DNA of 36,050 nt from an uncultured Bacilli bacterium (GCA_944371685.1 CALVXV010000002.1:1-36050); one strand, 5' to 3'; shown: positions 5,666 through 36,050, numbered from the stretch's first letter. Program-made: numbers and translations. Notes: a model not told the origin generated them from the letters alone.

Positions 5666-6988
5666 ATGTATTATTTGATTGGAATAAAAGGAACTGGCAT
5701 GAGCGCCCTAGCGTGCTTTCTTCATGACTTAGGCTATGAAGTAAAAGGTAGTGATGTTGAAACCCATTTCTTCACCGAAAAAGGACTAAATGAAAGAAAC
5801 ATTGAAATATTACCTTACGATGAAAAAAACATCACCAAAGACATGGTCATAATTAAAGGCAATGTCATTAAAGATGACCACCCAGAAATGATTAAAGCAA
5901 ATGAATTAGATTTAAAAATATACACATATCAAGAAATGATATCTAAATTAACCAAAATGTTTATGACAATAACTGTTGCTGGCTGTCATGGCAAAACAAC
6001 TACTTCCAATATGACCTATCAAGTCTTAAACGCTATTAAAGGCGCCAATTGCCTAATCGGCGATGGTACCGGCATAGCTAACAAAGAAAATAAATATTTT
6101 GTATTGGAAGCTTGTGAATACCAAAGACACTTCTTATCATATACCCCATATTATGCTATTATTACAAACATTGAATTAGATCATGTTGATTATTATAAAG
6201 ATATAGATGATGTTATTGATGCCTTTACCGAGTATGCCAATAATGCTGAAAAAATGGTTATAGCTTGTGGAGATGATCCATACACCCATAGCCTAGAAGT
6301 CAGTAAACCAATATTCTATTATGGACTAGATGACGATAATGATATAATTGCTAAAGATGTAAACTATACTGAAAACGGTGTAACTTTTGATGTGTTTGTT
6401 GAAGATAATTATTATGGACATTTTGACTTGCCATTATACGGTAAACACATGCTTTTAAATGCTTTAGCCGTGATTAGTTTAGCATACTATGAAAGATTCG
6501 ATGCTAAAGAAGTATCTAAAATACTAAAGGAATATCATGCTGCCAGAAGAAGATTCAATGAAACACAAGTTGGCACAAACATTTTAATTGATGATTATGC
6601 CCATCACCCAACCGAATTAAAATGTACAATAAAATCAGCCCGTCAAAAATATCCTGATAAAAATTTAATTGTCATTTGGGGGCCACATACATATTCAAGA
6701 ACCAAAGCCTTTAAAGATGAATATATTGAAATTTTAAAAACCGCCTCTAAAGCTTATATCATGGATATATATGCTGCTAGAGAAAAAAAAGGAGATATTG
6801 ATATCGACATAAACGATATCATCAAAGCTATTCCAAATGCCGAGCACATCACTGAACAAGAAACCGACAAATTGTTAAAATATGAAAATTCAGTTCTTTT
6901 ATTCATGAGTCCTAAGGACTTAACCTCATTTGAACAAGACTATATAAATAAATATCATGAAACACACGATAAACCTAGTGAAAACTAG
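5666..6988 (+). CDS. murC: UDP-N-acetylmuramate--L-alanine ligase
   Basis: Collinear with my recollection of Bacillus MurC: IGIKGTGMSALA..GYEV.GSD, GCHGKTTTS, EACEYQRHFLSY, DDYAHHPTE. Confidence 0.95.
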   Translation: MYYLIGIKGTGMSALACFLHDLGYEVKGSDVETHFFTEKGLNERNIEILPYDEKNITKDMVIIKGNVIKDDHPEMIKANELDLKIYTYQEMISKLTKMFMTITVAGCHGKTTTSNMTYQVLNAIKGANCLIGDGTGIANKENKYFVLEACEYQRHFLSYTPYYAIITNIELDHVDYYKDIDDVIDAFTEYANNAEKMVIACGDDPYTHSLEVSKPIFYYGLDDDNDIIAKDVNYTENGVTFDVFVEDNYYGHFDLPLYGKHMLLNALAVISLAYYERFDAKEVSKILKEYHAARRRFNETQVGTNILIDDYAHHPTELKCTIKSARQKYPDKNLIVIWGPHTYSRTKAFKDEYIEILKTASKAYIMDIYAAREKKGDIDIDINDIIKAIPNAEHITEQETDKLLKYENSVLLFMSPKDLTSFEQDYINKYHETHDKPSEN

Positions 6989-7031: not shown

Positions 7032-7709
7032 ATGTTTGACCGTTTAGAATTAATCATTGGCGACAAAATCAATTTACTTAAAAATAAAACTATTATGTTA
7101 ATTGGTCTTGGTGGAGTAGGCTCCCATACTTTTGAAGCATTAGTGCGAAGTGGTATTGGTAATATCATTATAATTGATAATGATACTGTAGATATCACTA
7201 ACTTAAATAGACAAGCATTAGCTTTTCAAAACACTATTGGTAAACCAAAAGTTGACATTGCCAAGCAAATGGCCAAAAATATAAATCCTAACTGTCACAT
7301 CTTACCTTATCAAATTTTCTTAAATGAAGATAATATTAATGATATTTTTAAGCAAAAAATAGACTTTATCATTGATGCCATTGATACCATTAATACTAAA
7401 AAATTAATTATAAAAAAATGTATAGAAAAAAATCTACCATTTATATCAGTGATGGGAACCGGCAATAAAATGCACCCAGAATTACTTGAAATAACCGATA
7501 TTAGACAAACCTCATATGATCCAATTGCTAAAATTTTAAGAAAAATGATTAAAGAAGAAAAAATAAAACAGAAAGTGCCCGTTATTTTTTCAAAAGAAAA
7601 ACCATTAATTAAAGGTAAAATAGGCTCAAATGCTTTCGTTCCCGCATCCGCTGGATTATTAGCCACTAGCTACACAATAAATAAAATATTGGAGGAAGAA
7701 CATGAATGA
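7032..7709 (+). CDS. tcdA: ThiF/MoeB-fold tRNA threonylcarbamoyladenosine dehydratase (TcdA/YgdL-like)
   Basis: Rossmann motif IGLGGVGS, DNDTVDITNLNRQ, short E1-like length. ATG at 7032 preferred over GTG at 7023. Confidence 0.8.
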   Translation: MFDRLELIIGDKINLLKNKTIMLIGLGGVGSHTFEALVRSGIGNIIIIDNDTVDITNLNRQALAFQNTIGKPKVDIAKQMAKNINPNCHILPYQIFLNEDNINDIFKQKIDFIIDAIDTINTKKLIIKKCIEKNLPFISVMGTGNKMHPELLEITDIRQTSYDPIAKILRKMIKEEKIKQKVPVIFSKEKPLIKGKIGSNAFVPASAGLLATSYTINKILEEEHE

Positions 7710-10137: not shown

Positions 10138-10833
10138 ATGAAAAAAGGTAAAAAATATTTAGCAGAGGCCAAAAAGCTTGACAAAAATAAACTTTACACT
10201 AAAGAAGAAGCTATAAAATTAGTAAAAGAAACTTCTTATGCTGGCTTTGATGCCTCAGTAGAAGTAGCTATGCACTTAAATCTTGATACTAAAAAAGCTG
10301 ACCAACAATTAAGAGGCGCTGTTGTCTTACCAAAAGGAACCGGCAAAACCAAAAAAGTATTAGTTATTGCTAAAGGTGAAGCTGCTAAAGCTGCCAAAGA
10401 AGCTGGTGCTGATTATGTTGGCGACACTGACATGATTGAAAAAATCAGTAAAGAAAATTGGTTTGACTTTGATAGCTTAATTGCTACTCCAGATATGATG
10501 CCTGCTTTAGGTAAAATTGGTCGTATTTTAGGACCAAAAGGTTTAATGCCTAACCCTAAAACTGGTACTGTTACCATGGATACTAAAAAAGCTGTTGAAG
10601 AAGTTAAAAAAGGTAGAGTTGAATACCGTACAGATTCTTACGGAAATGTTCATGCCTTAATTGGTAAAGTTTCATTTAGTGATGAAGATTTATTAGAAAA
10701 CTTAAAAACCTTTGTTACTTTAATCATCAAATCAAAACCAAGTGTTGTTAAAGGAACTTATGTTAAAAATATTTCTTTATCATCAACTATGGGACCTGGT
10801 ATTAAAGTAGATGTAACTAGCTTTGACAAATAA
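10138..10833 (+). CDS. rplA: 50S ribosomal protein L1
   Basis: [15 protein letters not shown]..., [19 protein letters not shown] at 10138 after the RBS aaggagg. Confidence 0.97.
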
Positions 10834-10851: not shown

Positions 10852-10854
10852 GAA

Positions 10855-10993
10855 TTCGTAATTTAATTATGCCGTAGACAGTAGGTGCCCTAAAGCTTAA
10901 TTTCCTACCGAGACATTGAATAAAGTCTTTTAGCTCTGGCATAATACCCAGAGCTTTTTTTAAACGGCAAACGGAAAGAGAGGTGCAAAGGAC
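10855..10993 (+). promoter_or_regulatory. Ribosomal protein L10 leader with intrinsic attenuator
   Basis: A ~140-nt leader upstream of rplJ containing GCCGTAGACAGTAGGTGCC...CCTACCGAGAC pairing and an attenuator hairpin agctctgg (10932-10939) / ccagagct (10948-10955) followed by a T6-7 run. Confidence 0.7.
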
Positions 10994-11494
10994 TTGGCTA
11001 ATCAAAAAATCTTAGCTAAAAAACAAGAAATCATCGACGAAATAGCTGAAAAAACTAAAAATGCTTCTGCAATGGTTTTATTCGAATATCAAGGATTAAC
11101 CGTTGAAGAAACTAATGAATTGAGAAGGGCTTTAAAAGAATCAGATTCAGAGTTCAAAATATATAAAAATACTTTGGTTAAAAGAGCATTTGATTCATTA
11201 AAAATCGACTTAGATGAAGATTTAAAAGGTCCAAAAGCAATGGCTTTCGGTACAGATGCTGTTGCTCCAGTTAAAGTTTTATATGACTTTGCTAAGAAGC
11301 ATCCAGCTTTAGTTGTAAAAGTAGGTTTAATTGATGGCGAAAAAACTGATGAAGCAAAACTTTCAGAACTATCAAAATTACCATCAAGAGATGGATTGCT
11401 TACTATGCTTGCAAGTGGACTTATCTACCCACTTAAGAGCTTATCTATATGCTTAGACTTATATAGACAAAATTTAGAAAAAGAAGAAAATTAG
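10994..11494 (+). CDS. rplJ: 50S ribosomal protein L10
   Basis: TTG start. ILAKKQEIIDEIAEK...FEYQGLTVEE..LR, and synteny. Confidence 0.96.
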   Translation: MANQKILAKKQEIIDEIAEKTKNASAMVLFEYQGLTVEETNELRRALKESDSEFKIYKNTLVKRAFDSLKIDLDEDLKGPKAMAFGTDAVAPVKVLYDFAKKHPALVVKVGLIDGEKTDEAKLSELSKLPSRDGLLTMLASGLIYPLKSLSICLDLYRQNLEKEEN

Positions 11495-25600: not shown

Positions 25601-26538
25601 ATGAAAAAATAAAACAAATCTTAAAAAGCAGAATATTTCTATTTATCACCACAGCCATTTTATTTAGTGTAGTTGGAGTATCAGCGGCCACATATTTTCC
25701 TTCTAATAATGTAACTTATGATAATAAAACTAGTGGCTTAGAAAGTACTGATGTGCAGGGAGACATAGATGAGATTTATTTAAAAGCATTCCCAAAAGTC
25801 CCAGAAGCAGGTGACACACCAATAGATATTGTAACCTCAGGTGATGGACTTTATAAAGATGAGTATGAAGATGGAAAATATACATATAAAGATACAAATC
25901 CCAATAATTATGTAACATTTAATAATGAATATGCAGGTTGGCGAATTATATCTATTGAAGATGATACATTAAAATTAATAAAAAACGATAGTATAGGAAA
26001 AAAATATCTGGATGGAACATGGCAAGATTCAGCAGCGCAAACGTACTTAAACCAAACATATTATAATAGTTTAAATTCCACCGCTCAAAGTCAAATAATA
26101 ACCCATGATTGGAATATTGGCGAAAATGTAATCATGAATCCTATGGCACCATACGAAATACAAACAGATTTAAAAAAATTAATAGTTCAAGAAAAATTAG
26201 ACAAATGGAATGGTAAAGTAGGTCTTATTTCTATTAGCGAATATATAAGAGCAAATTCAAATTTACTTGAATGTAATACGTGGTGGTTACACGGTACTTT
26301 AAATATGAATACTTGCATATCAACTAATTGGATGTATTATTCAAAAGAAAACTGGTGGACAATGATTAACTTCAATAACAAAATAAATAGTGCCTACATA
26401 ATAGCTTCAAACGGTAATATTGGTTATAATAATGACAGTCATAAAGAGAATGCGCTTAGACCGGTAGTATATTTATCTAAAGATATCAAAATTACAGGTG
26501 GTTATGGCACACAAGACAATCCTTACAGGTTCGAATAA
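25601..26538 (+). CDS. Signal-anchored secreted protein of unknown function (DUF6273-like C-terminal pattern), interrupted after codon 3 by a poly-A frameshift. The uninterrupted ORF is 25753-26538.
   Basis: ATG at 25601 gives ATG AAA AAA TAA. One extra A would give MKKIKQILKSRIFLFITTAILFSVVGVSAATYF..., continuous with the 261-aa ORF, whose frame is open back to 25600. The C-terminus carries W-rich motifs and ...ALRPVVYL. Confidence 0.6.
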
Positions 26539-31744: not shown

Positions 31745-33148
31745 ATGAAAAAGAAGTATGTTATTGGTATTATCATAATCATTATCTTGTTAATTAGTAG
31801 TGCTACTTTATTCTTTTGGCCACCATCATTCAAACTAAAAGGAAATAATATTACTCTAAAATATGGTCAAGATTATAAAGAACCAGGCTATACTGTAACC
31901 AAATTTGGAAAAGACTATTCAAAAAAAGTAAAAATTAAAGATAAAATCAATCCCAAAAAATTAGGCACTTATGAAATAATCTATGAATTAAAATTACATG
32001 GTATAACTTATAAACAAATAAGAAAAGTCACCATTACCGATAAAGAAAAACCAAAAATAACTTTAAATGGAAACCAAAATATCACCATCTGCCCAAATGC
32101 CAATTATACTGAAGATGGTTACACAGCCATAGATAACTATGATGGTGATATTACCGATAAAGTGCAAGTAAAAAATGAAAATAATAAAGTCACATATCAA
32201 GTAACAGATTCATCTGGTAATACCGCTAAAATAACAAGAACAATAACCAAAGAAGATAAAACTAAGCCATCCATAACATTAAAAGGCAATCAAAATCAAA
32301 CAATTTATCTAGGTACATCTTGGCAAGAACCTGGTTATACTGCCAGCGATAACTGTGAAGGCGATATTACAAATAAAGTTGTTGTAACCGGCTCTGTTAA
32401 TATTAAAAAAACCGGCAGTTATAAAATAACTTATACCGTCAAAGACAATATAGGCAATTCTTTTGAAACATATAGAATCATTAAAGTCATAAATAAACCC
32501 GTTACAAATAATACAAATACTAATGCTAAAGGTGTCATTTACTTAACCTTTGATGATGGACCAAACGAAGGAACCACTAATGTCATCCTAGATATATTAA
32601 AAAAAGAAAACGTCAAAGCTACTTTCTTCGTTACCAATAAAGGCCCAGACTATCTAATCAAAAGAGAGTATGATGAAGGCCACACCGTTGCTCTGCACAC
32701 CGCTTCACATGATTATGCCACAGTTTATAAATCAGTAGATAGTTACTATAATGATTTAACCCAAGTTCAAAATAGAGTCAAAAGAATTACTAAAACTGAA
32801 TCTAAAATAATTAGATTCCCAGGAGGTTCCTCAAATACTGTCTCCAAAAAATATTCAAAAGGCATCATGACTACTTTAACCAAAGATGTTTTAAGTAAAG
32901 GTTACCATTATTTTGATTGGAATATTGACTCTGATGATGCCGGAAGTGCTAAAAGCTCATCCGCCGTTTATAATAACGTCGTTAGAAACCTAAGCAAAAA
33001 TAAAGCTAATATAGTTTTAATGCACGATATTAAAACGCCAACCAAAGATGCCTTAACAAGCATCATCAAATTTGGTAAAAATAATGGCTATACCTTCGCT
33101 AAAATAACCATGGATACACCAATGGTCACTCATAAAGTAAATAATTAA
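31745..33148 (+). CDS. Membrane-anchored polysaccharide (peptidoglycan-type) deacetylase with three Ig-like DUF5011-type repeats
   Basis: An N-terminal signal anchor. Three ~75-aa repeats (EPGYT...DNYDGDITDKV / DNCEGDITNKV). A NodB domain with YLTFDDGP and LHTASHDY. Confidence 0.88.
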   Translation: MKKKYVIGIIIIIILLISSATLFFWPPSFKLKGNNITLKYGQDYKEPGYTVTKFGKDYSKKVKIKDKINPKKLGTYEIIYELKLHGITYKQIRKVTITDKEKPKITLNGNQNITICPNANYTEDGYTAIDNYDGDITDKVQVKNENNKVTYQVTDSSGNTAKITRTITKEDKTKPSITLKGNQNQTIYLGTSWQEPGYTASDNCEGDITNKVVVTGSVNIKKTGSYKITYTVKDNIGNSFETYRIIKVINKPVTNNTNTNAKGVIYLTFDDGPNEGTTNVILDILKKENVKATFFVTNKGPDYLIKREYDEGHTVALHTASHDYATVYKSVDSYYNDLTQVQNRVKRITKTESKIIRFPGGSSNTVSKKYSKGIMTTLTKDVLSKGYHYFDWNIDSDDAGSAKSSSAVYNNVVRNLSKNKANIVLMHDIKTPTKDALTSIIKFGKNNGYTFAKITMDTPMVTHKVNN

Positions 33149-33162
33149 TTGGAGATGAAAAC

Positions 33163-33795
33163 ATGATAAAAAAAACTATAATTATCAGTCTATTAATTAT
33201 CATAATAACTACATTAGCTTTTTCTTATTACTATGACCAAACCCTTCTAACTCGTTTAGAAGCAAAATATAATAATACTCAAAACTATAATGATTTAATT
33301 CATTTATGTAACAATCTTTATGAAACTAATGACTATAATAAACAAATCAAATATTGTAGTAAAATGTTAAATAATAAAGACCAATTCTTAAAAGCCAAAA
33401 AAGAAAGTGAAGATGCTGAAAAAGAATATTCTATATATACATTTTGGTACCTAAAAGCTTTACTTAATAATAAAAACTATGATAAATATAAAACCGAATT
33501 CGATCATTATTTTTATAAGTTAAATAGTTTAACTATGCTAGAAAAATTATATAATAACTATATTAAAAATGACACATTCAATCACCAAGCACTAACTATA
33601 ATTTTAGAAAGTGCCAATGACAATGTCAATAAAATAAACAATTTAACTTCCCCTTCAAAAGAGGATATAAATAGATATAAAGTATTGCAAACTATTAGAT
33701 ATAATATATACACTAAAACAAATAATAAAAATAAAGCCAGCAAAGTCTTAAAAGAAAAAGAAGATTATTTAAACAAAGTCAAACAAAATAATTAA
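33163..33795 (+). CDS. Membrane-anchored hypothetical protein (helical, N/K/Y-rich)
   Basis: 210-aa ORF with one N-terminal TM. I recognise no family. Confidence 0.55.
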   Translation: MIKKTIIISLLIIIITTLAFSYYYDQTLLTRLEAKYNNTQNYNDLIHLCNNLYETNDYNKQIKYCSKMLNNKDQFLKAKKESEDAEKEYSIYTFWYLKALLNNKNYDKYKTEFDHYFYKLNSLTMLEKLYNNYIKNDTFNHQALTIILESANDNVNKINNLTSPSKEDINRYKVLQTIRYNIYTKTNNKNKASKVLKEKEDYLNKVKQNN

Positions 33796-33823
33796 AGAAA
33801 TGTCCAAAAAACATTTCTTTTTA
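33794..33823 (+). terminator. Rho-independent terminator
   Basis: Perfect 10-bp stem aaagaaatgt (33794-33803) / acatttcttt (33811-33820), followed by TT. Confidence 0.65.
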
Positions 33824-33831
33824 AATTTTAT

Positions 33832-33860
33832 TTGCATTTAAAAAATCAATATGTTAATAT
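33832..33860 (+). promoter_or_regulatory. Promoter of the TIR-SPFH operon
   Basis: TTGCAT (33832-33837), 17 nt, TAATAT (33855-33860), with an extended -10 TGTTAATAT. Confidence 0.55.
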
Positions 33861-33902
33861 TATATTAGAAAAACTAAGAAAAATAATAGGAGTGTGTTTT
33901 AA

Positions 33903-35762
33903 ATGACTTTTAAATGTAAGATGTGTGGTGGCGATATCGAGCCAATTAAAGGTACTAATACCGGTAAATGTCTATACTGTAAAAGTACAATGACCTTGCC
34001 AAATTCTGATAATGAAAAAATAATCAATCTTTATAATAGAGCAAACGAACTAAGACAATCTAATGAATTTGATAAAGCGCAAGGCCTGTATGAATCCATA
34101 CTAAATCTTGACAACACCCAGTTAGAAGCGCAGTGGGGTATCTTGCTTTGCAAATATGGCGTCGAATATGTCGATGACCCTAAAACAAATAAAAAGATTC
34201 CTACTTGTCATAAAGCTAATAAAGAATCAATTCTAACCACTCAAGAATATAAACATATCATAAAAAATGCTTATGGTAAAACATTAGAACTCTATGAAAA
34301 AGAGGCCAAAGAAATTAATAGAATTCAAAAAGAAATATTAGAAATATCCGAAAAAGAAAGCCCATACGATATATTTATTTGTTATAAAGAAACCGATGAA
34401 AAAAATGGTGGGCGAACCAAAGACTCCGTAATAGCCCAAGAAATATATAACGAATTAACTAAATTAAACTATAAAGTATTCTTTTCTAGAATTACTTTAG
34501 AAGATAAAATAGGTTCAGAATATGAACCATATATCTACTCAGCACTAAAAACCTCAAAAGTAATGCTGGTAATTGGAACATCTCAAAAAAACATGAACTC
34601 AGTTTGGGTTAAAAATGAGTGGAGCCGTTATTTAGACATCATGAAAAAAGAAAAAAATAAAACCTTAATTCCTTGTTTTTATGGCATGACAGCAGCTGAC
34701 TTACCTGATGAATTTATTCTTCTTCAAGGGCAAGATCTAAATAAAATAGGTGCTATTCAAGACTTAATAAGAGGCATCACCAAAATAATTAAAAAAACAC
34801 CAAGAAATGAAGAAATATCTGATGAATTATTAAATAAATTCAAAGAAATGTTAAAACAAGAAGAAGAACTAAAAAGAAAAGAGCAAGAGGAAGAAGAAAG
34901 AGGCGTAGAAGTTAAAATATACAAAGAGAAATGTCCAAAAAGTTATAGTATTATCACATTTTTGCTCTCTGCTATAGTAGCCACTTTCTATATTATATTA
35001 ATTAGTAATTCAGTTTTTGTTTCAAATAATCAAATTTTATATATAAAACTATTATCCTCTTGGCTTGTAATAATATTTGGCACGACATCTATACTATATT
35101 TTGTGGCTTATATATTAGGTTTTAGTAGTCGAAAAAAAAGAAGAATATCTAAATATCTATATATTATAAATCTATTTATATTCTTACTATTTTCAGTCTT
35201 TATATATAAAGAATATAACTTAACCTTTAACTCATCTATACTAGGTATTTACATTTTCACTATCATACTAATATTAATGAACTCTAAATGGCAATTAAAA
35301 GCAGAAACAATCCTTATAAAAAAACAGTACGCTGAAGAAATCAAGCAATTACAGAAAGAAGAAAAGAAAAATTTTGAAGAAAACCCACATACTAAAACTC
35401 CAATAATTGCTTACATACTTGCCCTAGTATTATCAATCACATTAATATTCACTGTATTAATGAAACCAAAAGTTATAGGCGTGCAAAACACAAATGAAAA
35501 CCAAATATTAGTAACAATAGATTATATAAATGTTAGAAAAAATCCAGATAGTAGTAGCCAAAAACAAGGCTATATCTTCTCAGAAAGTTATTATAATGTA
35601 CTAGATATAGTGTCATGTAAAAATATAGATAACTGTCCAGATAAAGATGGCCTTTGGTATAAAATAGAATATATACCAAATAAAATAGGTTATGTATATT
35701 CCGGAAATAAATCACAAAATGGAGAATATACATATACAAAATATATTCCAAAAAGAAAGTAG
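33903..35762 (+). CDS. Zn-ribbon / TIR-domain / 5-TM / C-terminal SH3b-like membrane protein
   Basis: CxxC-x14-CxxC (aa 5-26). TIR-like block YDIFICYKETDE...KVFFSR...VMLVIGT...SVWVKNEWSRYL (aa ~154-292). Hydrophobic helices at aa ~346-520. SH3_3-like YINVRKNPDSSS...WYKIEY..IGYVYS (aa ~533-600). Confidence 0.85.
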   Translation: MTFKCKMCGGDIEPIKGTNTGKCLYCKSTMTLPNSDNEKIINLYNRANELRQSNEFDKAQGLYESILNLDNTQLEAQWGILLCKYGVEYVDDPKTNKKIPTCHKANKESILTTQEYKHIIKNAYGKTLELYEKEAKEINRIQKEILEISEKESPYDIFICYKETDEKNGGRTKDSVIAQEIYNELTKLNYKVFFSRITLEDKIGSEYEPYIYSALKTSKVMLVIGTSQKNMNSVWVKNEWSRYLDIMKKEKNKTLIPCFYGMTAADLPDEFILLQGQDLNKIGAIQDLIRGITKIIKKTPRNEEISDELLNKFKEMLKQEEELKRKEQEEEERGVEVKIYKEKCPKSYSIITFLLSAIVATFYIILISNSVFVSNNQILYIKLLSSWLVIIFGTTSILYFVAYILGFSSRKKRRISKYLYIINLFIFLLFSVFIYKEYNLTFNSSILGIYIFTIILILMNSKWQLKAETILIKKQYAEEIKQLQKEEKKNFEENPHTKTPIIAYILALVLSITLIFTVLMKPKVIGVQNTNENQILVTIDYINVRKNPDSSSQKQGYIFSESYYNVLDIVSCKNIDNCPDKDGLWYKIEYIPNKIGYVYSGNKSQNGEYTYTKYIPKRK

Positions 35763-35771
35763 AGGTAAATT

Positions 35772-36050
35772 ATGGCAATATTTGAAGTAATAAAAAAAGT
35801 TAAAGCTGATGATAATCTAGTATGGAAATATCCTAAAACAAATTTTAACACAATGTCACAGTTAATAGTCCATGAATCACAAGAAGCATTATTTTTCTCA
35901 AATGGTAAAGCTTTAGATTTATTTGGACCGGGTAAATATACCTTAACCACCAATAATATTCCACTTCTAAAAACATTTTTAAATATTCCAACCGGTTTTA
36001 GAAGTCCCTTTCAGTGTGAAGTATATTTTATCGATAAAACCGAAAAAAAT
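35772..36050 (+). CDS. SPFH/Band-7 superfamily protein of the YdjI type (COG4260-like); 3' end outside the window
   Basis: MAIFEVIKKV...LVWKYP....SQLIVHESQEALFFSNGKALDLFGPGKYTLTTNNIPLL..........SPFQCEVYFIDK follows the N-terminal pattern of B. subtilis YdjI-like proteins as I recall it. It starts 9 nt after the TIR gene stop, with its own RBS. Confidence 0.7.
   Translation, partial: MAIFEVIKKVKADDNLVWKYPKTNFNTMSQLIVHESQEALFFSNGKALDLFGPGKYTLTTNNIPLLKTFLNIPTGFRSPFQCEVYFIDKTEKN

What the first reader, a model, noticed from the sequence alone, without database searches (positions are those of the whole stretch)
33832..36050. Operon pairing a receptor-like transmembrane TIR protein (Zn-ribbon-TIR-5TM-extracellular SH3b) with a YdjI-type SPFH protein: candidate undescribed envelope-sensing / abortive-infection module
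What the sequence shows:
- A clean terminator (33794-33823) and a dedicated promoter isolate this unit. The second ORF starts 9 nt after the first, so the two are very likely co-transcribed.
- The 619-aa protein has an N-terminal CxxC...CxxC zinc ribbon followed by a helical linker.
- It then has a TIR-like domain starting YDIFICYKETD, with the S-x-W...E motif (SVWVKNEW). The candidate catalytic Glu is E239, nt 34617-34619.
- A K/E-rich coiled coil follows, then five hydrophobic helices.
- The loop charges (SSRKKRR and the KKQYAEEIKQLQKEEKK segment) fit the positive-inside rule. That places the TIR domain in the cytoplasm and the C-terminal SH3b-like domain outside the membrane.

Established knowledge:
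- Bacterial TIR domains act as NAD+-cleaving or signal-generating enzymes in Thoeris, CBASS/Pycsar effectors and related defence systems.
- SH3b domains typically bind peptidoglycan.
- YdjI-type SPFH proteins cooperate with PspA in the membrane-stress response of B. subtilis.

Inference: an extracellular cell-wall-binding sensor wired through the membrane to a cytoplasmic TIR enzyme, partnered with a membrane-scaffold protein. This combination does not correspond to any named defence system I know. It could sense envelope breach (phage endolysin, injection or cell-wall damage) and trigger NAD+ depletion or signalling. The window ends inside the SPFH gene, so further partners may lie downstream.
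Basis: partly seen in the sequence, partly recalled or inferred. Interest (0 to 1): 0.8.

Follow-up and report, generated by a model that had tools for sequence, protein, structure and literature searches.

The report
Membrane TIR receptor–SPFH scaffold three-gene system
The window ends in a three-gene operon: a membrane protein with an enzyme-type TIR domain inside the cell and a cell-wall-binding SH3b domain outside, a YdjI-like SPFH scaffold protein, and a previously unnoticed 4-helix membrane partner. This trio is conserved across hundreds of gut Firmicutes and I found no published description of it.

Summary
- **ORF 33903-35762 (619 aa, "T")**: zinc ribbon, TPR-like helices, TIR domain, coiled coil, five transmembrane (TM) helices, SH3b domain. 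TIR and SH3b are supported by Pfam and by an AlphaFold model searched with Foldseek.
- **Catalytic-type Glu239**: invariant in 81/81 family representatives and 167/168 locus copies.
- **Next gene ("S")**: starts 9 nt after T. It is a Band_7_1 SPFH protein with C-terminal zinc ribbons.

- **Third gene ("G")**: contigs carrying the identical T protein show a co-transcribed gene for a 4-TM protein with a cytoplasmic helical domain and no Pfam family. A terminator follows it.
- **Family-wide linkage**: the T-S-G trio is linked in both directions. S lies beside T in 26/31 well-flanked genome loci. S lies beside G in 51/53 metagenome loci, and T is present in 15/18 well-flanked ones.
- **Conserved cassette, variable sensor**: T's N-terminal 300 aa stays 45-75% identical, while the TM and outer domains are swapped (SH3b, LRR, RCC1, DUF6273).
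- **Variation**: T copy number differs between close relatives.
- **Hypermutation**: in two loci a diversity-generating retroelement targets T's outer domain.

Against a classic mobile defence gene: the surroundings are housekeeping genes, and nothing matches in the phage or plasmid collections.

Best reading: a surface-sensing TIR receptor organised by an SPFH/4TM scaffold. Its biological role (immune-type surveillance or envelope stress) is untested. I found no literature on it.

The parts
33794..33822 (+). Terminator-like hairpin (10-bp A+T-rich stem, 7-nt loop, U tract) ending the upstream 210-aa gene and isolating the operon
   Evidence: -8.6 kcal/mol, z = -3.3, 0/200 shuffles fold as well. 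Not listed by the consensus scan because it has fewer than 3 G-C pairs.
33832..33860 (+). Candidate promoter: TTGCAT, 17 nt, TAATAT, preceded by TGt (extended -10). Low confidence.
   Evidence: Read directly from the sequence. The scan lists only weaker overlapping sites, and promoter-like sites are not enriched over shuffles.
33888..33892 (+). Ribosome-binding site AGGAG, 10 nt before the ATG of T
   Evidence: Sequence
33903..35762 (+). Gene T: 619-aa zinc-ribbon/TIR/5TM/SH3b membrane protein
   Evidence: The identical protein occurs on 16 metagenome contigs.
33909..33995 (+). N-terminal zinc ribbon (residues 3-31; C5, C8, C23, C26)
   Evidence: C8, C23 and C26 are invariant and C5 is at least 90% conserved in 81 representatives. 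The model shows three short strands.
34014..34355 (+). Conserved helical adaptor region (residues 38-151): one TPR-like unit, a beta-hairpin carrying conserved C83, C102 and H103, then a long helix
   Evidence: Weak TPR_2 hit. TPR proteins match profile positions 46-82. W78, L82, G86, Y89 and P100 are invariant. Secondary structure.
34365..34793 (+). TIR domain (residues 155-297), cytoplasmic
   Evidence: Pfam TIR_2 above its gathering score. Foldseek hits to AbTir, MyD88, RPS4 and SPARTA TIR domains at probability 1.00.
34617..34619 (+). Codon of Glu239 in the WVKNEW motif, at the start of helix alpha-C: the position of the catalytic Glu in TIR NADases
   Evidence: coordinates. Invariant in 81/81, 60/60 and 167/168 locus copies.
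34821..34898 (+). K/E-rich helix / coiled coil (residues 307-332) linking the TIR domain to the membrane
   Evidence: Helix 307-332 in the model
34938..35459 (+). Membrane region (residues 346-519): five TM helices plus a cytoplasmic amphipathic helix (474-493)
   Evidence: Hydropathy, model. The five segments are kept in all in-lineage paralogues.
35502..35747 (+). C-terminal SH3b-like domain (residues 534-615), predicted to lie outside the membrane
   Evidence: SH3_3 at 24.4 bits (below cut-off 27). Foldseek hits 2krs, 9kz1, 4krt and 3npf. Homologues P0087 and P0095 carry a precomputed PF08239 hit.
35772..36050 (+). Gene S, first 93 codons: Band_7_1 SPFH protein, cut by the window end. Full length is 382 aa with a Gly-rich segment and two C-terminal double zinc ribbons, and no TM helix.
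   Evidence: fragment, E 6.4e-21. Full length from L001 11870-13018 (Band_7_1 E 4.4e-40, DZR, Zn_Ribbon_1).

Best explanation
The window holds the first one and a quarter genes of a three-gene operon, T-S-G. I read this operon as a membrane-associated surveillance complex.

**The three proteins**
- **T** is a receptor-like protein. Its SH3b domain sits outside the membrane and most likely binds peptidoglycan. Five TM helices connect it to a cytoplasmic cassette made of a zinc ribbon, a TPR-like adaptor region and a TIR domain of the enzymatic type.
- **S** is a soluble SPFH protein built like YdjI. By analogy with B. subtilis YdjI, which needs YdjG and YdjH to reach the membrane, S would be brought to the membrane by G and by the N-terminal zinc-ribbon module of T. 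There it would oligomerise into a scaffold.
- **G** has 4 TM helices, a conserved cytoplasmic RYSDP helical domain and, in this lineage, an outer BspA-type LRR insert.

**Proposed mechanism**
- The scaffold controls whether the TIR domains of neighbouring T molecules can assemble.
- A change at the outer domain (ligand binding, loss of wall contact, or clustering) would let the TIR domains associate and cleave NAD+. The result would be NAD+ depletion or a nucleotide signal.

**Wider picture**
- Across the family the inner cassette and the S-G pair are constant.
- The outer domains are swapped, duplicated and, in some lineages, hypermutated.
- The system therefore behaves like a germline repertoire of surface receptors feeding one conserved output.

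**Shown versus inferred**
- Shown: architecture, topology by the positive-inside rule, operon structure, two-way gene linkage, active-site conservation, sensor diversification.
- Inferred: physical T-S-G interaction, NADase activity, the activating signal, and the biological role. For the role I favour immune- or conflict-type surveillance of the cell surface over pure housekeeping.
For: **Architecture and folds**.

**Operon structure**
- Gaps of 9 nt and 1 nt between the genes.
- Hairpins before T and after G (-17.7 kcal/mol, z = -5.0).
- Gene list.

**Gene linkage**
- Only three protein families recur among 82 loci: T in 82, S in 59, G in 44.
- Of 31 genome loci with at least 4 kb on both sides, 26 have S and 22 have G on the same strand.
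- Starting independently from G in metagenomes, S is immediately upstream in 51/53 loci. In 18 well-flanked loci, 18 have S and 15 have T.

**Active site**: Glu239 in 81/81 and 167/168 sequences; D156 and K162 also kept.

**Conserved cassette versus variable sensor**
- 3,878 cluster representatives match at E <= 1e-30.
- Of the 150 best representatives listed, almost all match only residues 1-300, at 40-61% identity, and their lengths range from 430 to 2,363 aa.
- Most have one TM helix followed by a large C-terminal region.
- The variable regions beyond the TIR cassette include DUF6273, RCC1, BspA-LRR, LRR_8, FNIP, MORN and SH3_3.
- Within the lineage, paralogues are 62-75% identical in the cassette but 17-30% in the TM and SH3b parts.

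**Copy-number variation between close relatives**: the window has 1 T, L018 (95% identical) has 3, L010 has 2.

**Hypermutation**: complete diversity-generating retroelements (Avd, TR, RT) target the C-terminal DUF6273 domain of T in L087 and L146. In each, 19 mismatches fall on adenines of the template repeat, out of 20 and 25 mismatches respectively.

**Zinc-ribbon module as common denominator**: TIR-less proteins with an N-terminal zinc ribbon and TPR also follow S-G.

**YdjI precedent**
- YdjI is a soluble SPFH protein with a C-terminal zinc finger that needs the membrane proteins YdjG and YdjH (PMC8581546).
- YdjG has N-terminal zinc ribbons (PMC11237479).
Against: - No biochemical or genetic data exist for any member.
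- The neighbourhood is housekeeping. The window holds rpoB/C, SMC, ABC-F, pilus genes, iPGM and QueH. In 48%-identical relatives the operon lies directly after rpoC.
- Neighbours of 33 loci show only scattered defence genes.
- There is no match in the phage or plasmid collections.
- The inner cassette is far more conserved than is usual for defence proteins.
- The operon holds no downstream effector that could read a TIR-made signal, such as a ThsA-like protein.
- The SH3_3 score is below Pfam's cut-off in this particular protein.
- Topology rests on hydropathy and charge, not on a dedicated predictor or an experiment.
- Homology of S to B. subtilis YdjI was inferred from shared architecture and Pfam family, not from a direct alignment.
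Confidence: 0.45

Rival explanations
1. Envelope-stress housekeeping module. T-S-G would be a Firmicute counterpart of B. subtilis YdjGHI/SamGHI. The SPFH scaffold and its membrane partners would monitor and stabilise the membrane and wall. The TIR domain would tune NAD+-linked physiology or merely help assembly. The system would have no role in conflict with phages or competitors.
For: - S has the YdjI architecture: Band_7_1, a low-complexity stretch, C-terminal zinc ribbons and no TM helix (PMC8581546, PMC11237479).
- T starts with a zinc ribbon, as YdjG does. The YdjG primer in PMC8581546 translates to MIISYKCPNC.
- The genomic position is vertically conserved and housekeeping, next to rpoBC.
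- The family has no match in the phage or plasmid collections.
- SH3b and polysaccharide-deacetylase neighbours point to the cell wall.
Against: - No PspA-like or TPM-domain (YdjH-like) family recurs in the loci. Only T, S and G do.
- This reading does not explain an invariant catalytic-type Glu.
- It also does not explain tandem arrays of 2-4 T paralogues with unrelated outer domains, copy-number differences between 92-95% identical relatives, or retroelement hypermutation of the outer domain.
Confidence: 0.3
2. Surface-protein anchoring platform. The T proteins would be adhesins or other surface-binding proteins (LRR, lectin-like, SH3b). Their cytoplasmic zinc-ribbon/TIR cassette would be a non-enzymatic oligomerisation and docking module, like the TIR domains of animal adaptors. 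It would cluster the T proteins in S-G microdomains, with no NAD+ chemistry involved.
For: - The variable domains are typical of surface-binding proteins of gut Firmicutes.
- TIR-less proteins with a zinc ribbon and TPR occupy the same position next to S-G, so the TIR domain is not obligatory for the locus.
- The best structural matches include the non-enzymatic MyD88 and MAL TIR filaments.
Against: - The Glu at the catalytic position and its WxxNEW context are kept in 167/168 copies. Such conservation is not expected for a purely structural TIR domain.
- AbTir, an NADase, is an equally good structural match.
Confidence: 0.15
3. The adjacency of T and the SPFH gene is incidental, and the two genes act independently.
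For: None beyond the fact that operon membership alone does not prove joint function.
Against: - Linkage is kept across Bacilli and Clostridia at 40-60% identity, in both search directions and in several gene orders: SGT, TSG, TTSG, TSGT.
- The intergenic gaps are only 9 nt and 1 nt.
Confidence: 0.02

Closest known systems
B. subtilis PspA-YdjGHI (SamGHI) envelope-stress complex
   Same: - Both have a soluble Band-7/SPFH protein with a C-terminal zinc finger, encoded next to membrane proteins.
- One of those membrane proteins begins with a zinc ribbon.
- In B. subtilis the membrane partners recruit the SPFH protein to the membrane (PMC8581546; PMC11237479; bioRxiv 10.64898/2026.02.06.704340).
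   Different: - There is no PspA and no TPM-domain YdjH here.
- The partner G is an unrelated 4TM protein with no Pfam family.
- The zinc-ribbon membrane protein carries a TIR domain and a variable outer domain, and it is often present in several tandem copies.
- Gene order differs.
Retroelement-diversified C-type-lectin 'antigen sensors' fused to TIR or other effectors in multicellular bacteria (PMC10907252; PMC7159879)
   Same: - Both combine a conserved effector (TIR) with a hypervariable ligand-binding domain.
- Two T-family loci (L087, L146) carry a complete diversity-generating retroelement aimed at the lectin-like DUF6273 domain of T.
   Different: - Many of the described sensors are cytoplasmic and are built around STAND or MoxR NTPases. 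They occur in Proteobacteria and Cyanobacteria.
- T proteins have no NTPase, place the variable domain outside the membrane, are linked to an SPFH/4TM pair and occur in gut Firmicutes.
- The window's own T has SH3b and no retroelement.
Thoeris and other TIR-based anti-phage systems (ThsB/ThsA; TIR effectors of CBASS/Pycsar; SPARTA)
   Same: - The TIR fold with a conserved catalytic-type Glu.
- TIR activity controlled by assembly.
   Different: - The operon has no ThsA-like reader, no cyclase and no Argonaute.
- NCBIfam ThcB4 scores 18.6 bits against a cut-off of 220, and PADLOC gives only a weak PDC-S66 hit.
- T is a membrane receptor-type protein in a housekeeping context.
Animal Toll-like receptors (analogy only)
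   Same: - An outer ligand-binding repeat domain (LRR in some T members), a membrane span and a cytoplasmic TIR domain.
- A repertoire of paralogues with one conserved signalling domain.
- From my own knowledge: TLR signalling depends on clustering in flotillin-containing membrane domains.
   Different: - The chain order is reversed: TIR at the N-terminus, sensor at the C-terminus.
- The TIR domain is of the enzymatic type.
- No common descent of the whole architecture is implied.
HflK/C-FtsH SPFH cage (analogy for S; from my own knowledge)
   Same: An SPFH oligomer that encloses or organises a membrane-anchored enzyme and so regulates its access to partners.
   Different: - HflK/C are themselves membrane-anchored and periplasmic.
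- S is cytoplasmic, belongs to the Band_7_1 branch and has zinc ribbons.
- No structure is available: PDB sequence searches found nothing for the SPFH part.

Membership tests
TIR domain superfamily (Pfam TIR_2), enzymatic type | Sequence match to the family model above its curated threshold | tested here: met
   TIR_2 E 8.6e-11, 42.8 bits against cut-off 28. 62/62 representatives also match.
TIR domain superfamily (Pfam TIR_2), enzymatic type | Flavodoxin-like TIR fold | tested here: met
   AlphaFold2 model with pLDDT mostly 83-94 over residues 155-297, dipping to 64-68 at about 191-210. Foldseek probability 1.00 to AbTir 7uxu and MyD88 8yym (target TM-score 0.72) and to RPS4 4c6r.
TIR domain superfamily (Pfam TIR_2), enzymatic type | Conserved Glu at the catalytic position (start of helix alpha-C, after the S/x-W motif) | tested here: met
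   E239 is invariant in 81/81 and 167/168. It sits in helix 234-249, following strand 220-225. Equivalence to the catalytic Glu of solved NADases was judged from motif and position, not from a residue-level superposition.
TIR domain superfamily (Pfam TIR_2), enzymatic type | NAD+ cleavage activity | not testable with these tools
   Needs an enzyme assay.
Bacterial SH3 (SH3b / SH3_3) cell-wall-binding domains | Sequence match above the curated threshold | tested here: not met
   24.4 bits against cut-off 27 for this protein. Some homologues carry a precomputed PF08239 hit.
Bacterial SH3 (SH3b / SH3_3) cell-wall-binding domains | SH3b fold | tested here: met
   Foldseek probability 1.00 to 2krs (rmsd 1.4 A over 66 columns), PlySb 9kz1 (target TM-score 0.68), endolysin 4krt and NlpC/P60-associated SH3b 3npf.
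Bacterial SH3 (SH3b / SH3_3) cell-wall-binding domains | Location outside the membrane and peptidoglycan binding | tested here: inconclusive
   An odd number (5) of TM helices and positive-inside loop charges place it outside. Binding was not testable.
YdjI-type SPFH proteins (B. subtilis PspA-YdjGHI system) | Band_7_1 SPFH domain, no TM helix, low-complexity stretch and C-terminal zinc finger | tested here: met
   Band_7_1 E 4.4e-40, DZR and Zn_Ribbon_1 at residues 333-379, Gly-rich segment, no hydrophobic helix. The YdjI description comes from PMC8581546 and PMC11237479.
YdjI-type SPFH proteins (B. subtilis PspA-YdjGHI system) | Operon partners PspA, YdjG (two zinc ribbons + NTF2-like domain + TM) and YdjH (TPM domain) | tested here: not met
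   Only T, S and G recur in 82 loci. G has no Pfam family, TPM included. No other family, such as PspA, recurs in the loci.
YdjI-type SPFH proteins (B. subtilis PspA-YdjGHI system) | Direct sequence orthology to B. subtilis YdjI | not tested
Thoeris | ThsB-type TIR protein matching a curated Thoeris model, plus a ThsA-type effector in the locus | tested here: not met
   ThcB4 scores 18.6 bits against cut-off 220. No ThsA-like gene is in the operon or recurs in the loci.
PADLOC candidate PDC-S66 | Full-length match to the PDC-S66 model | tested here: inconclusive
   E 1.7e-6, 25.7 bits; covers only residues 101-268, mainly the TIR region.
Retroelement (DGR) target proteins | Variable repeat in the gene plus template repeat, Avd and reverse transcriptase nearby, with adenine-specific mismatches | tested here: not met
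   - Not present for the window's T on exact-match contig L001: the self-comparison of all loci found a pair only in L087.
- Met for family members in L087 and L146.

The most novel reading that the evidence does not exclude
Gut Firmicutes carry a Toll-like-receptor-style surface surveillance system. It would consist of a germline, and sometimes retroelement-hypermutated, repertoire of transmembrane TIR receptors. Their outer domains (SH3b, LRR, lectin-like, RCC1) would detect threats at the cell surface, such as phage particles, wall-degrading enzymes or competitors, before anything enters the cytoplasm. An SPFH/4TM scaffold would gate TIR assembly and NAD+ cleavage. This would be a new class of bacterial immunity that senses from outside the cell, and the first functional link between SPFH microdomains and TIR signalling in prokaryotes.
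Probability: 0.3. Interest if true: 0.92.

Novelty: new variant of a known kind. Interest (0 to 1): 0.8.

Why it matters
- **Outside sensing.** Nearly all characterised bacterial TIR systems sense infection from inside the cell. A large, conserved family of membrane TIR proteins with exchangeable and sometimes hypermutated outer domains would make sensing from outside directly testable.
- **A client for YdjI-type SPFH proteins.** The cellular role of these proteins is still being worked out, and this system gives them a concrete enzymatic client.
- **Scale.** The family is large: about 3,900 clusters at 50% identity match at E <= 1e-30. It is concentrated in human and animal gut Firmicutes.
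- **Testability.** Cultured carriers exist, for example Pseudoflavonifractor capillosus An827 (WP_204897294.1) and Blautia sp. HCP3S3_H10, so experiments are feasible.
- **If the housekeeping reading is right instead**, it would link NAD+ chemistry to envelope-stress signalling, which would also be new.

Tried and rejected
- **PDB sequence searches.** The protein and the family profile gave no TIR or SPFH relative, only TPR and WD-repeat artefacts and zinc-ribbon hits.
- **Defence and naming libraries.** PADLOC and NCBIfam gave only weak, sub-threshold TIR-level hits.
- **Gene G.** Pfam found no family. The Foldseek search of the G model identified only its LRR insert (TpLRR 6mlx), not its 4TM/helical core.
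- **Mobile elements.** The T cassette has no match in phage or plasmid records.
- **Defence-island test.** Among 148 neighbours, only scattered defence hits appeared: one CBASS, PDC-S02, a dGTPase and MzaA. The mad3/mad8 and RmrA hits may be generic cross-matches. The rest are housekeeping families. I therefore rejected 'defence-island cargo'.
- **Literature searches.** I tried TIR + SPFH, TIR + Band-7, transmembrane TIR, and SPFH + phage defence. None found a paper describing the trio. The apparent TIR hits in the PSP paper refer to CesT/Tir chaperones, not TIR domains.
- **Technical dead ends.** A broad G alignment was too divergent for the metagenome scan, so I used a narrower one.
- **Composition.** G+C of the operon (27-28%) matches its flanks, so there is no sign of recent transfer.
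- **Promoter.** The 'dedicated promoter' could not be substantiated.


Full report
**1.

The ORF at 33903-35762 (+) encodes 619 aa. It contains the zinc ribbon (C5, C8, C23, C26), YDIFICYKETD from residue 155 and SVWVKNEW from residue 233. Glu239 is codon GAG at 34617-34619.

Pfam reports TIR_2 at residues 157-271 (E 8.6e-11, above threshold). It reports SH3_3 at 542-601 at 24.4 bits, just under its threshold of 27, and a weak TPR unit at 43-71.

An AlphaFold2 model built on 60 homologues has mean pLDDT 84.8. Foldseek against the PDB returns two groups of hits:
- TIR domains at probability 1.00: AbTir 7uxu, MyD88, RPS4, SPARTA.
- SH3b cell-wall-binding domains: 2krs at rmsd 1.4 A, PlySb 9kz1, endolysin 4krt.

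Hydropathy and the model agree on five TM helices plus one cytoplasmic amphipathic helix. The K/R-rich loops lie on the TIR side, so the TIR domain is inside and SH3b outside.

The next ORF starts 9 nt after the stop codon, at 35772. It matches Band_7_1 (E 6.4e-21) before the window ends.

The upstream hairpin at 33794-33822 is real: -8.6 kcal/mol, z = -3.3. The promoter claim cannot be verified, because promoter-like sites are at chance level.

**2. The unit has three genes**

The identical protein occurs on 16 metagenome contigs, the longest 1.385 Mb. On these contigs:
- The SPFH gene is complete. It encodes 382 aa with Band_7_1, a Gly-rich stretch, two double zinc ribbons and no TM helix.
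- One nucleotide later a third gene, G, follows (416 aa, no Pfam family).
- A strong terminator comes next: -17.7 kcal/mol, z = -5.0.

The family core of G is about 230 aa. It has four TM helices and a cytoplasmic helical domain with the conserved motifs RYSDP(M/V)S and ERNxxCKxxK. In the window's lineage, the first outer loop of G carries an insert of about 210 aa made of two repeats. The model of this insert resembles the BspA-type LRR protein TpLRR.

**3. T is one branch of a very large family**

The exhaustive representative search found 6,544 clusters at E <= 1e-3 and 3,878 at E <= 1e-30. Of the 150 best representatives listed, only about eight align well beyond residue 350; nearly all the rest match only residues 1-300, at 40-61% identity, and they range from 430 to 2,363 aa.

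In 81 representatives the following are invariant or nearly so: the zinc-ribbon cysteines, W78, L82, G86, Y89, P100, the DxFxCYKE strand and WVKNEW, including E239. E239 is also kept in 167/168 unique copies from the fetched loci.

Most members have a single TM helix followed by a large C-terminal region. Beyond the TIR cassette they carry TPR repeats, and their variable regions include DUF6273 (11/62), RCC1, BspA-LRR, LRR_8, FNIP, MORN, TM2 and SH3_3.

The 5TM+SH3b form is confined to uncultured small-genome Bacilli from animal and human guts. The window's G+C content is 30.7%.

Public names are only generic: 'TIR domain-containing protein' and 'DUF6273 domain-containing protein'.

**4. T, S and G are linked in both directions**

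I translated all ORFs of 82 loci (L001, L007, and the 80 genome loci) and clustered them. Only three families recur: T in 82 loci, S in 59 and G in 44. Shadow ORFs on the opposite strand were set aside.

| Test | Result |
|---|---|
| Genome loci with at least 4 kb on both sides (31) | 26 have S and 22 have G on the same strand, within 2.7 kb |
| Metagenome loci found from a G profile, with enough upstream DNA (53) | S immediately upstream of G in 51 |
| Metagenome loci found from G, with at least 5 kb on both sides (18) | 18 have S, 15 have T |

- Loci without S are mostly cut at contig ends.
- S is always directly followed by G. T genes lie before and/or after the pair (orders SGT, TSG, TTSG, TSGT, SGTTTT), with 1-4 copies per locus.
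- In 48%-identical relatives the same T-S-G operon lies directly after rpoB-rpoC. In the window it lies about 14 kb downstream of rpoC.

**5. The sensor part diversifies while the inner cassette is constant**

Within the SH3b lineage, paralogues compare as follows:
- 65-75% identical in residues 1-150.
- 62-67% identical in the TIR domain.
- Only 18-30% identical in the TM region and 17-29% in SH3b.

Close relatives differ in T content. The window has one copy, L018 (95% identical orthologue) has three, L010 has two, and L017 keeps a different paralogue.

A self-comparison screen of all loci found a textbook diversity-generating retroelement in L087. Its gene order is S, G, T (863 aa, ending in DUF6273), bAvd, a 125-bp template repeat, then reverse transcriptase. 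The variable repeat lies at the extreme C-terminus of T, and 19 of 20 mismatches fall on template adenines.

L146 has the same arrangement, with 19 of 25 mismatches on template adenines. L095 and L098 keep only remnants of the reverse transcriptase.

DUF6273 is a C-type-lectin-like fold already known as a retroelement target in gut phages (PMC10743442, PMC11792537).

**6. The N-terminal zinc-ribbon module is the common denominator**

A profile of T residues 1-150 also detects TIR-less proteins directly downstream of S-G. These include the loci that lack any T gene (L127, L131). They carry a zinc ribbon and a TPR unit ('MKQLTCEMCGSTDLIKQDGVFVCQSCG.KYSVEEAKKMM...', 350-790 aa). Some are soluble and some have C-terminal TM helices, RCC1 or DUF5050.

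This suggests that the zinc-ribbon/TPR module is the docking element for the S-G pair. TIR would then be the commonest cargo, but not the only one.

**7. Context argues against classic mobile defence cargo**

- The window is housekeeping throughout: L10 leader, rpoB, rpoC, SMC, ABC-F, T2SS-F and prepilin peptidase, iPGM, QueH, polysaccharide deacetylases.
- Among 148 neighbours from 33 loci, defence models hit only sporadically, and housekeeping families dominate.
- The T cassette has no tblastn match in 50,697 phage or 72,556 plasmid records.
- The operon's G+C content matches its flanks.

**8. Comparison with what is known**

S has the architecture described for B. subtilis YdjI: soluble, SPFH, low-complexity region and C-terminal zinc finger. 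YdjI needs the membrane proteins YdjG and YdjH to reach the membrane. YdjG begins with zinc ribbons (PMC8581546, PMC11237479). [quoted passage not shown]

The operon here lacks PspA and a TPM-type YdjH, G is unrelated to either, and no TIR domain is known in the YdjGHI system.

Retroelement-diversified lectin sensors fused to TIR or other effectors are described in multicellular Proteobacteria and Cyanobacteria (PMC10907252, PMC7159879). Many of those are cytoplasmic and they are built around NTPases.

Thoeris, CBASS and SPARTA share only the TIR fold with T.

Six full-text searches found no paper that links TIR with SPFH/Band-7 or describes this trio. That covers only the open-access library searched, so prior description elsewhere cannot be excluded.

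**9. Most likely mechanism (inference)**

- S oligomerises under the membrane, docked to the cytoplasmic domain of G and to the zinc-ribbon/TPR module of T.
- This scaffold sets the spacing of the TIR domains. From my own knowledge, enzymatic TIR domains (SARM1, AbTir, plant TIRs, TIR-SAVED, TIR-STING) become active only on ordered self-association.
- A change at the outer domain then permits TIR assembly and NAD+ cleavage. For this window's protein, that change would be in SH3b contact with peptidoglycan.
- I cannot say whether the scaffold holds the receptors apart or concentrates them.
- The operon has no reader for a TIR-made signal, so NAD+ depletion is the simplest output.

I favour an immune- or conflict-type role (0.45) for four reasons: the interchangeable sensor domains, the tandem arrays, the strain-level copy variation and the retroelement targeting.

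The envelope-stress reading (0.30) explains the conserved housekeeping position and the YdjI parallel. A non-enzymatic anchoring platform (0.15) is made less likely by the nearly invariant Glu.

**10. Verdict**

The finding is real, larger than reported, and apparently undescribed. It is built from known parts (TIR, SPFH, SH3b/LRR/lectin sensors), so I file it as a new variant of a known kind rather than categorically new. Interest is high.

Noticed in passing
L087 5751-12526; L146 4365-8501: Complete diversity-generating retroelements (bAvd, template repeat, RVT_1 reverse transcriptase) lie directly downstream of a T-family gene. The variable repeat sits at the C-terminal DUF6273 domain of T. 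In L087 the variable repeat is 10437-10561 and the template repeat 11169-11293, with 19/20 mismatches on template adenines. In L146 they are 6801-6922 and 7280-7401, with 19/25. L095 and L098 keep only reverse-transcriptase remnants.
   Followed up: partly
L127 2211-3593, L131 8718-10100, L072 10418-14789, L028 4493-5548, L114 9114-10733 and others: TIR-less proteins with an N-terminal zinc ribbon and a TPR unit (350-790 aa) sit directly after the S-G pair, including in loci that have no T gene. Some carry RCC1, DUF5050 or C-terminal TM helices. They look like alternative clients of the same scaffold.
   Followed up: partly
L018 4083-9857; L010 6052-9845; L017 6942-8783, compared with window 33163-35762: Close relatives (92-95% identical orthologue) differ in T gene content at the same site. 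L018 has three tandem 5TM+SH3b paralogues, L010 has two, and L017 has a single but different paralogue. The window has one T gene, preceded by an unrelated 210-aa TM/TPR-like ORF (33163-33795) that is absent from L018.
   Followed up: partly
L001 13020-14270 (gene G, beyond the window end); L017 and L018 G genes: In this lineage G carries an outer insert of two ~110-aa repeats that model as BspA-type LRR units (Foldseek hit TpLRR 6mlx). Relatives L017 and L018 have one repeat (307 aa) and L020 has more (510 aa). Clostridial G proteins have no insert (~230 aa).
   Followed up: partly
window 34149-34211 (residues 83-103 of T): C83, C102 and H103 are at least 90% conserved and flank a predicted beta-hairpin (strands 87-91 and 98-102). 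This may be a second metal site in the adaptor region.
   Followed up: no
window 34905-34931 and 35292-35318 (residues 335-343 and 464-472 of T): The model predicts two beta-strands, one just before TM1 and one just after TM4, on the cytoplasmic face. They may pair to form a small sheet under the membrane.
   Followed up: no
window 25753-26538: A separate 261-aa ORF has a weak DUF6273 (lectin-like) match (E 7e-6). This is the same domain type that forms the outer domain of many T-family proteins elsewhere. Related contigs L001 and L002 have a different DUF6273 gene at this position.
   Followed up: no
window 31745-33148; L001 14321-15178: Two polysaccharide-deacetylase genes bracket the operon. 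The upstream one also has three bacterial Ig-like surface domains. They are cell-wall-modifying neighbours, conserved in the close relatives.
   Followed up: no
window 10854-10969: A ribosomal protein L10 leader (Rfam RF00557, 64.3 bits) lies upstream of rplJ-rplL-rpoB-rpoC. No tRNA genes were found in the window.
   Followed up: yes
L009 4671-7879; L087 12867-14391: A few T loci do sit next to defence-type genes. L009 has two AAA_21 ATPases plus RloB upstream of T. L087 has DUF6088 plus an AbiEii toxin next to the retroelement. This is not a general feature of the family.
   Followed up: partly
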